A stretch of DNA of 63,949 nt, filler included, from Aplysia californica (lineage: Eukaryota): assembly GCF_000002075.1 (NCBI RefSeq). It is 3 parts of 3 records of this genome, joined end to end, with 100 filler letters (N's around TTAATTAATTAA, not from the genome) between each part and the next. Parts side by side here need not be neighbours in the genome. Positions count along the whole stretch, not along the records: positions 46,949 to 63,949 come from NW_004797845.1; 2 more parts are not named here. One strand, written 5' to 3'. How positions within the stretch are numbered: the stretch's first letter is position 1; every line of letters starts with the position of its first letter. A model generated the notes under the pieces. It made no database searches and was not told where the DNA came from. It was given only the letters and a program-made list of their open reading frames with translations. Position numbers and translations under genes: made by a program. Positions 59,253-60,454 of the stretch are shown here, piece by piece.

Positions 59253-60454
59253 CTGTGATGGTGTCACGTCACGCCGTCACGTCACGTTGGAATTGATACA
59301 CCACGCCAGGCCACGTCACGTCACGTCACGTCACGTCACGTCACGTCAAGAAGGCGCACGGGACAGAGATGTGTTGGGCGACATCGTCGTTGTTGTGGAT
59401 GGTCAGCCAGCGTAATTGTTGTTTGTTTGTTTGTGTTTGTTTGTTTCGTTTGCGTTTGTTTGTTTTTTAATAATCCAAATTAAGACGGGAAGGGACGGGA
59501 AGGGACGGCAAGTGACGGGGTGAGGTGAGTGGAGTGGGGAAGGGTCCAGAGATGGATTCAACGTCGTTGGGGTGGGCAGGAGGCGGATAAGGGGACAATA
59601 TTTGTTGTCATTGATGTGTTGTTGTTGTTGAAGGCGTCGGGTTTTTGTGATGGAGTTGGTAAAACATGATTTGGCCGGGGACGATGTCATGGCGAGGAAG
59701 TAAAGGATGGGTGTCAAGAAAGAATTGGGGAGATGTTTGGGAGGGCATATGGGAGGAAGAGAGAGACGAAGAGAGAGAGAAAGGGAGAGAGAGAGGGAGA
59801 ATATGGGAGGAAAGGGGGCGGGGGGAGGGGGAGGGGAAGGGGGGAGAAAAAGTACAAACAACTTTAAAACCAAACTCCAATAAAAAGTCAACATAGTAAA
59901 TGCAAAAAAACATTTCATGGAACACAAACACTTCAAACACCAAATTCAGTAAAAGTGAACACAATAAATGTAGATATCGGACCCTGGAACAATCAATCAC
60001 CTTAATCCACAATGACATACAGGAACAAGGTTTAAGTAAACGTAAGCCCTCTATTCGGACCTTACAGGACCCACTACCCTCATCCACGGTCTCCACTCTA
60101 CGTGCGGGTACATTTGAGCAGTTGTTGCTTCGTGCGACAAAGACACTATTCATTTACTTTAAGAATTGGTTGAAAGAGGGTGGGGGCAGCGGGTAGAAAT
60201 GATGTACAAACGGTGATCAGGTGTTTCGCATTCTTTTTCAAAGTCGTTCAGAATTCAGAATGGAAAGAACCAAACGAACAATACTGTAATTAAAAAAGAT
60301 TTCTAAATGTTCTAGAACTATTGCGAAAGAAAGGGAGGGCGCAGTGGGGCCGATGTTGTTGGCGCAAAACGGCCAAAATAAATTATAAAAACAAAACCCC
60401 CAAGAAATGACGCGACAACAGTCGTCAAGAACTCCAAACTGCGCGAGTGTGTAC

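What the first reader, a model, noticed from the sequence alone, without database searches (positions are those of the whole stretch)
59255..59861. 607-nt AG-exclusion zone before the canonical Rab3 exon suggests a distant branch point
Seen: by manual scan, the minus strand has no AG between the acceptor (59253-59254) and 59862-59863. The acceptor has no adjacent pyrimidine tract, while a very long one lies at ~59850-59700, just after branch-point-like words near 59860-59900. Established: long AG-exclusion zones with distant branch points mark regulated, often mutually exclusive exons (alpha-tropomyosin, alpha-actinin). Inference: independent support that the exon pair is a regulated switch. 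The 1202-nt intron is too long for simple steric exclusion.
Basis: partly seen in the sequence, partly recalled or inferred. Interest (0 to 1): 0.7.

Follow-up and report, generated by a model that had tools for sequence, protein, structure and literature searches.

The report
Long AG-free runway before Rab3 exon
In a likely sea-hare gene for the nerve-terminal switch protein Rab3, the usual version of an either/or exon is preceded by 607 letters that never contain the splice signal AG, which likely means the splicing machinery anchors far upstream and slides to the exon; this is a known device, unusually long here, and it was not seen in distant relatives that share the exon pair.

Summary
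Observation confirmed: no AG on the minus strand in 59255-59861, against about 9.5 expected after masking repeats. An RNA contig shows that the acceptor at 59253 is used although it has no adjacent pyrimidine tract. A 133-nt, 90% pyrimidine tract sits at the far end of the zone, so a distant branch point is likely (0.6) but unmapped: the best branch motif is blocked by an AG, and 39% of the zone is simple repeat. The exon pair is real and old: database isoforms of oysters, abalone, a brachiopod and a nemertean swap exactly this 41-residue piece, which covers Rab3's effector-specificity loop. The long zone is not conserved in distant orthologues (15-109 nt in 40 acceptors; none identified as a snail), and it cannot lock the exons sterically (at least 590 nt from the upstream donor). 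So it supports regulated acceptor choice only modestly. Rotifer orthologues instead show a conserved predicted RNA stem around the first exon. New member of a known kind.

The parts
62310..62428 (-). Upstream constitutive Rab3 exon, 119 nt (switch II region)
   Evidence: 100% identical over 40 residues to Biomphalaria Rab3 P0025; joined to exon B in an RNA contig
60455..60579 (-). Exon A, the alternative 125-nt copy (41 residues, 19 of 41 identical to exon B)
   Evidence: AG/GT boundaries, open frame, same phase as exon B; groups with Elysia alternative exons, support 96/92; splicing in this species not shown
59862..59897 (-). Branch-like words (59897, 59888, 59881) and the two AGs (59875, 59862) that close the zone; possible cryptic acceptor at 59862
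59862..59869 (-). Most likely distant branch point candidate (A at about 59864, position -612); weak motif
   Evidence: only candidate next to the long tract that has no blocking AG; inferred, not mapped
59720..59852 (-). 133-nt pyrimidine tract (90% C+U, 36% U), partly degenerate CT and C-rich microsatellite
59255..59861 (-). 607-nt AG exclusion zone
59480..59714 (-). Further branch candidates inside the zone: 59714 (-462) and 59526 (-274), each followed by 73-80% pyrimidines, and 59480 (-228)
59419..59467 (-). A/C-rich tetranucleotide repeat
59263..59348 (-). GUGAC pentamer repeats directly before the acceptor (branch-like words, no pyrimidine tract)
59128..59252 (-). Exon B, the canonical 125-nt Rab3 exon (alpha3-beta5 loop, NKxD motif, helix 4)
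   Evidence: spliced on both sides in contig 1 of run X12, depth 378; aligns to Rab3A of 1ZBD
59045..59109 (-). Pyrimidine-rich tract just after exon B's donor, cut by an assembly gap

Best explanation
The acceptor of the canonical Rab3 exon (exon B) is used in RNA and is preceded by 607 nt without any AG; its branch point likely lies far upstream, most probably at about -612 beside the 133-nt pyrimidine tract, so the spliceosome would branch first and then scan to the first AG. Selection against a premature AG would keep the runway clean. The space between tract and exon would serve as a landing area for splicing regulators that switch exon B off, letting the duplicated exon A be used instead. 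The branch point is too far from exon A's donor to block joining the two physically, so either/or use is more likely kept by reciprocal regulation plus the frameshift that inclusion of both 125-nt exons, or of neither, causes. Shown: the zone, the tract, use of the acceptor with exon A skipped, the exon duplication, and either/or isoform models in relatives. Inferred: branch position, scanning, regulator binding, use of exon A in this species, and altered effector binding.
For: 0 AG against 9.5 expected after repeat masking and 15-18 unmasked. The deficit runs through the zone: 3.6 expected in the unmasked part of -459 to -278 alone, none seen. AG is at ordinary density upstream of the zone (23 in 593 nt), the pattern given for verified distant-branch-point exons (PMC1431707). 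The acceptor has no adjacent tract (47% pyrimidine) yet is used. Of 20 pyrimidine tracts in the window, 4 end at assembly gaps; 15 of the other 16 have an AG within 35 nt, this one after 471 nt. Database isoform pairs of 5 species differ only within this 41-residue exon, and abalone has three versions. Weak indirect hint: a cuttlefish gene model reads 203 stop-free, pyrimidine-rich codons in front of the same exon.
Against: The best branch motif (59888, 6 of 6 pairing positions) has an AAG 26 nt downstream and so does not fit scanning to 59253; the unblocked candidate at 59864 is weak (4 of 6), and eight more unblocked candidates lie between -462 and -94. 234 of 607 nt are tandem repeat, and this genome makes 450-nt AG-free runs from repeats alone; PMC1431707 describes a 369-nt repeat-made zone unrelated to splicing and estimates that only one fifth to one half of zones of 100 nt or more mark distant branch points. 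TA- and CG-free runs reach similar expected counts by chance. In 40 distinct orthologous acceptors from metagenome contigs the zone is 15-109 nt; in the 7 loci with the same exon order as here it is 26-95 nt and the introns hold AGs throughout. The Nucella gene model implies an AG about 34 nt before the canonical exon (read from P0002; indirect).
Confidence: 0.6

Rival explanations
1. The zone is a by-product of stacked C/A-rich microsatellites on a G-poor strand; the true branch point is near the acceptor, among the GUGAC repeats or at -94/-151, and the long pyrimidine tract is a neutral CT repeat.
For: 39% of the zone is tandem repeat and CT tracts are common in the window; branch-like words occur at -94, -151 and in the GUGAC array; distant orthologues lack a long zone; other dinucleotides give runs of similar expected count.
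Against: 9.5 AG still expected after masking, GA is not depleted (23), the run ends exactly at a used acceptor, and that acceptor has no adjacent tract.
Confidence: 0.25
2. The strong branch word at 59888 serves a second acceptor, the AAG at 59862, giving a decoy or a 609-nt longer exon B; the zone is then partly exonic and the acceptor at 59253 uses another branch point.
For: Best branch motif 26 nt before an AAG with a U-rich stretch between. Contig 6 of run X17 is spliced at exon B's donor but continues at least 43 nt into the zone, as such a form would.
Against: The same contig is equally explained by a partly spliced precursor; the abundant contig (depth 378) joins at 59253; this reading does not itself explain why AG is missing downstream.
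Confidence: 0.1
3. The C/A-rich zone is one arm of long-range RNA pairings with G/U-rich sequence around exon A (docking-site type control), and AG scarcity follows from that.
For: 11-14 bp complementary stretches exist (60715-60704 with 59540-59529; 60420-60407 with 59285-59272); rotifer orthologues have a conserved predicted stem around the first exon.
Against: The best window helices (-24.9 and -23.7 kcal/mol) lie within the range of 12 locally shuffled sequences (-20.8 to -25.8); pairing does not require loss of AG.
Confidence: 0.05

Closest known systems
Distant-branch-point exons defined by AG exclusion zones: rat alpha-tropomyosin exon 3, PTB exon 11, GABBR1 exon 23 (PMC1431707; parts 1-3 of 8 read)
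   Same: Long AG-free zone, long pyrimidine tract at its 5' end, normal AG density upstream, alternative exon context
   Different: Longer than the mapped or mutationally tested cases there (-160 to -351; Fugu PTB exon 11 is predicted at -566 in a 590-nt zone; one 1126-nt human zone is unverified); weak branch motif; invertebrate; nothing mapped
OGDH mutually exclusive exons 4a/4b (PMC7969005; abstract and sections 24 and 29 read), and alpha-tropomyosin 2/3 and alpha-actinin as described in PMC1431707
   Same: Tandem duplicated exons, frame-incompatible, second exon preceded by a very long pyrimidine tract and AG-free zone
   Different: There the branch point lies close to the upstream donor and blocks joining; here it is at least 590 nt away, and the zone is not conserved across the phylum
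Frame-enforced tandem duplicated exons such as U2AF1 3/Ab (PMC5224494, passages) and human RAB37 (PMC8373072, passages)
   Same: Homologous exons of equal length whose joint inclusion shifts the frame; for RAB37 a swapped Rab surface patch
   Different: Different gene; in the passages read, the word rab3 refers only to RAB37
RefSeq Rab3 isoforms of Crassostrea virginica, Ostrea edulis, Haliotis rufescens, Lingula anatina and Tubulanus polymorphus
   Same: The same exon position is swapped
   Different: Automatic annotation only; the window's exon A is more diverged (loses the Trp of the loop) and is closest to Elysia

Membership tests
Distant-branch-point (AGEZ) exons | AG exclusion zone of 150 nt or more before a used acceptor | tested here: met
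   607 nt; acceptor used
Distant-branch-point (AGEZ) exons | Normal AG frequency upstream of the zone | tested here: met
   23 AG in 593 nt
Distant-branch-point (AGEZ) exons | Branch consensus with adjacent pyrimidine tract at the 5' end of the zone | tested here: inconclusive
   Tract present (133 nt, 90%); unblocked motif weak, best motif blocked by an AAG 26 nt on
Distant-branch-point (AGEZ) exons | No good branch point plus tract at the conventional position | tested here: inconclusive
   No tract (47% pyrimidine), but GUGAC words and a candidate at -94
Distant-branch-point (AGEZ) exons | Zone not simply made of AG-free repeats | tested here: inconclusive
   373 of 607 nt non-repeat, 9.5 AG expected; other dinucleotides reach similar values
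Distant-branch-point (AGEZ) exons | Long zone kept in orthologues (supporting feature) | tested here: inconclusive
   Absent in 40 distant acceptors (15-109 nt); no close relative's intron was available; indirect hints for (cuttlefish) and against (Nucella)
Distant-branch-point (AGEZ) exons | Branch point mapped or mutationally verified beyond -100 | not testable with these tools
   No lariat joints in 8 runs laid
Sterically locked mutually exclusive exons (tropomyosin 2/3, OGDH 4a/4b) | Upstream donor within about 50 nt of the branch point (PMC5740500) | tested here: not met
   590 nt or more
Tandem-duplicated mutually exclusive exons | Homologous neighbours of equal length and phase with intact splice sites | tested here: met
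   125 nt each, AG/GT, 19 of 41 residues identical
Tandem-duplicated mutually exclusive exons | Transcripts carry one or the other | tested here: inconclusive
   Exon B alone in this species; either/or gene models in 5 other species; exon A junctions not seen here
Tandem-duplicated mutually exclusive exons | Joint inclusion shifts the frame and triggers decay | tested here: inconclusive
   125 is not a multiple of 3; no stop within exon B in the shifted frame; later exons were not found in the window
RNA-pairing controlled exon clusters (Dscam, ATE1 type) | Conserved intronic pairings stronger than chance | tested here: inconclusive
   Window helices not above shuffles; no close relatives to test covariation

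The most novel reading that the evidence does not exclude
Spiralian Rab3 carries an old either/or exon that swaps the effector-specificity loop, so one gene makes a neuronal Rab3 and a second Rab with other partners, and lineages control the choice by different devices: an RNA stem that hides the first exon in rotifers, and in sea hares a branch point about 610 nt from its acceptor, among the longest scanning distances proposed and in an animal group where my search found none described.
Probability: 0.3. Interest if true: 0.65.

Novelty: new member of a known kind. Interest (0 to 1): 0.42.

Why it matters
Distant branch points are described mostly from vertebrates; a 600-nt case in a likely model mollusc would test how far the spliceosome can scan for its acceptor, with a simple AG-insertion experiment. 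The exon it controls encodes the alpha3-beta5 loop (RabSF3/CDR2) through which Rab3A contacts rabphilin (PMC9308819, PMC5902227, bioRxiv 10.1101/764019; passages read), so the switch could change which effectors the main synaptic-vesicle Rab binds. The exon pair is already present in automatic annotations of several molluscs but was not found discussed in four library searches.

Tried and rejected
No whole genome is held for this window, so no genome-wide acceptor background could be made. No RNA holder was listed as such. Raw RNA runs X23 and X24 gave 10 and 16 reads and none on either exon; most lie on the gene's strand just before A-rich stretches, as internal oligo-dT priming would give, so they say nothing on exon use. 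In 6 contig runs no contig joins exon A to a neighbour; contigs of X13, X15 and X20 cover parts of it and run into intron. Contigs drop rare forms, so this is no evidence of absence. No lariat-type joints were listed. Organism B's contigs (X15) do not cover the zone. A word-indexed search with exon A alone found no hit; the HMMER search did. No third exon copy and no later Rab3 exon were found in the window; 7,794 bases are N. Long-range pairing in the window was not above shuffles; the plain fold of the intron had no shuffle control. YCAY, CAC, YGCY, UCUU and CUCU were not enriched in -468 to -3 against 1000 dinucleotide shuffles; only UGAC was (15 against 4.4), because of the repeat, so no specific regulator is supported. 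A search of the zone against the rest of the window showed only CT-repeat matches among the first 30 rows printed. The 41-column tree cannot tell one origin of the alternative exons from several (3 changes, most forks unresolved). Steric exclusion was rejected. No supplementary files were read; tables of duplicated exons in supplements (for example of PMC8373072 or PMC5740500) could list a Rab3 case.

Full report
Observation. On the minus strand AG occurs at 59253-59254 and next at 59862-59863; the 607 nt between contain none and no N. Longer apparent gaps in the window are assembly gaps. Among N-free runs this is the longest on the minus strand (next 272 nt); two 450-nt runs on the plus strand are wholly tandem repeat. 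Shuffling the zone in blocks of 10 to 607 nt gives 15-18 AG on average and no AG-free case in 20,000 shuffles per block size, while GA occurs 23 times. Because repeats inflate such counts I masked them: 373 nt remain, with 9.5 AG expected. This ranks first among 67 AG-free runs of 100 nt or more (next 7.3), but TA- and CG-free runs elsewhere reach 9.7 and 9.3. What makes it more than an extreme value is its place: it ends at a used splice acceptor.

Gene context. The minus strand carries three Rab3 exons: 62428-62310, exon A 60579-60455 and exon B 59252-59128. A and B are both 125 nt, in the same phase, and 19 of 41 residues identical. A contig of run X12 (depth 378) covers exon B with loose ends that match the upstream exon on one side and encode the next Rab3 segment on the other. 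So the acceptor at 59253 is used and exon A is skipped in that form. A contig of run X17 is spliced after exon B but runs at least 43 nt into the zone. Use of exon A in this species is not shown.

Anatomy of the zone. From 5' to 3': a U/G-rich stretch with branch-like words; the last AG (59862); a 133-nt tract of 90% pyrimidine; mixed C/A-rich sequence; an A/C tetranucleotide repeat; GUGAC pentamers; the acceptor, whose preceding 30 nt are only 47% pyrimidine against 83% at the upstream exon. I scored adenosines by match to the branch consensus given in PMC1431707 and by the recalled yUnAy rule, with no mollusc-specific model. The best word (59888) has an AAG 26 nt downstream, beyond the 12-15 nt that can be bypassed according to PMC1431707, so it does not fit scanning to 59253. 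The candidate next to the tract that does fit (59864, -612) is weak, and further candidates lie at -462, -356, -306, -274, -228, -215, -151 and -94. The AG deficit extends at least to about -460: 3.6 are expected in the unmasked part of -459 to -278 and none is seen, whereas the tract itself carries under 1 expected AG and so is uninformative. As a control, of 20 pyrimidine tracts in the window 4 end at gaps, 15 are followed by an AG within 35 nt, and this one by 471 AG-free bases.

The exon pair in other animals. Searches with the two exons recovered a second copy of this exon in Batillaria, Nucella, Littorina, Pomacea, Patella, Haliotis, scallops, oysters, Lingula, nemerteans, bdelloid rotifers and Elysia. 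Database isoform pairs of Crassostrea virginica, Ostrea edulis, Haliotis rufescens (three versions), Lingula and Tubulanus have equal length and differ only inside this 41-residue piece; the one other pair examined (Patella caerulea) carried the same exon twice. The window's exon A groups with the Elysia copies (96/92); deeper forks are unresolved, so one or several origins are both possible. The exon aligns to Rab3A of the rabphilin complex 1ZBD and begins with the alpha3-beta5 loop, the RabSF3/CDR2 region that contacts rabphilin (PMC9308819; PMC5902227; bioRxiv 10.1101/764019; passages only). Most alternative copies have His in place of the loop's Tyr; exon A here also loses the Trp. Altered effector binding is an inference.

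Is the long zone conserved? A pattern scan of metagenome contigs gave 54 genomic copies of the canonical exon. After collapsing identical flanks, 40 acceptors have zones of 15-109 nt, median about 32. Seven loci have an alternative copy upstream, as here; their zones are 26, 26, 37, 72, 72, 95 and 95 nt, and the five such introns printed hold AGs throughout. The taxa of these contigs were not determined and none was identified as a snail, so close conservation is untested. Two indirect hints from gene models disagree: a cuttlefish model reads 203 stop-free, pyrimidine-rich codons in front of the exon, 63 of them a tandem repeat, while the Nucella model implies an AG about 34 nt upstream.

Mechanism. 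The most economical reading is an AG-independent intron end of the kind described by Gooding et al. (PMC1431707, parts 1-3 of 8 read): branching far upstream on a strong tract, then scanning to the first AG, with room for regulators in between (0.6). Exclusivity more likely rests on regulation plus frame incompatibility; decay is not shown, because the shifted frame has no stop inside exon B and later exons were not found in the window. No regulator motif was enriched. The main rival is a repeat-made zone with a nearby branch point (0.25), a case that the same paper documents. A second acceptor at 59862 (0.1) and long-range pairing (0.05; helices not above shuffles) are less likely.

Side result. 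In 13 of the 54 loci, likely bdelloid rotifers by protein identity, the alternative copy lies downstream. In 8 of these that I aligned, an 8-nt word before the canonical exon's acceptor is complementary to a word 25-40 nt after its donor; duplex energies beat 299 or 300 of 300 shuffles in each. Of 96 cells 92.7% pair, with two double-sided changes, but covariation is not beyond the shuffle control (46 of 500). This predicted stem would loop out the first exon. The rotifer inter-exon introns are AG-poor (5 seen, 33 expected in 8 introns), but constitutive rotifer acceptors also have zones of 44-95 nt, so that is not specific.

Novelty and verdict. Distant branch points before duplicated exons are a known kind. 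Searches for Rab3 with mutually exclusive or duplicated exons and for mollusc branch points showed no paper on this case in the listings; the library lacks most subscription journals and no supplements were read. The exon pair is already in automatic annotation of other molluscs. The scan's earlier notes hold similar devices in other genes and, in four look-ups, none on Rab3. Verdict: real feature, likely functional, new member of a known kind; interest 0.42.

Noticed in passing
L001, L002, L007, L012, L021, L022, L030, L042 (likely rotifer Rab3 loci), about 20-45 nt before the canonical acceptor and 25-40 nt after its donor: Conserved complementary 8-12 nt words that would form a stem enclosing the first of the two exons; one clear C-G to U-A change in L022; covariation not significant with 8 rows.
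   Followed up: partly
P0266, P0145, P0221 (Haliotis rufescens); P0013; L003, L040: Three versions of the exon exist in abalone; a second type of alternative copy also appears in Lineus, L003 and L040, so the cluster has had three members in some lineages.
   Followed up: partly
window 60455-60579: Exon A has a weak-looking donor (GTACAC), a 60-nt AG-free zone and no strong tract; the GNKCD motif reads GNKLD here and GHKCD in Elysia, which may affect nucleotide binding.
   Followed up: no
P0054 (cuttlefish gene model): 203 codons of pyrimidine-rich, stop-free intron are read as coding in front of the canonical exon; a possible long AG-poor zone in cephalopods.
   Followed up: partly
P0215 and P0024 (Elysia marginata, contigs of equal length), P0165, P0190, P0001, P0002: Gene predictors mishandle this locus: split genes labelled Rab-27A and Rab-26, read-through after exon A, or both exons fused in frame.
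   Followed up: no
window 45000-46700, plus strand: Large pentamer satellite giving two 450-nt AG-free runs (45166-45615, 46228-46677), apparently duplicated.
   Followed up: no
window about 62670-62850, 57330-57410, 53940-54030, 50390-50550, 49340-49480, 47120-47300 (minus strand): A dispersed repeat of about 150-200 nt ending in an A-rich tail recurs by eye at least six times; it looks like the 3' end of a retroelement.
   Followed up: no
window 59127 to 1: The next Rab3 exon, seen in RNA contigs, was not found in the remaining 59 kb, so it lies in a gap or the intron is longer than 59 kb.
   Followed up: partly
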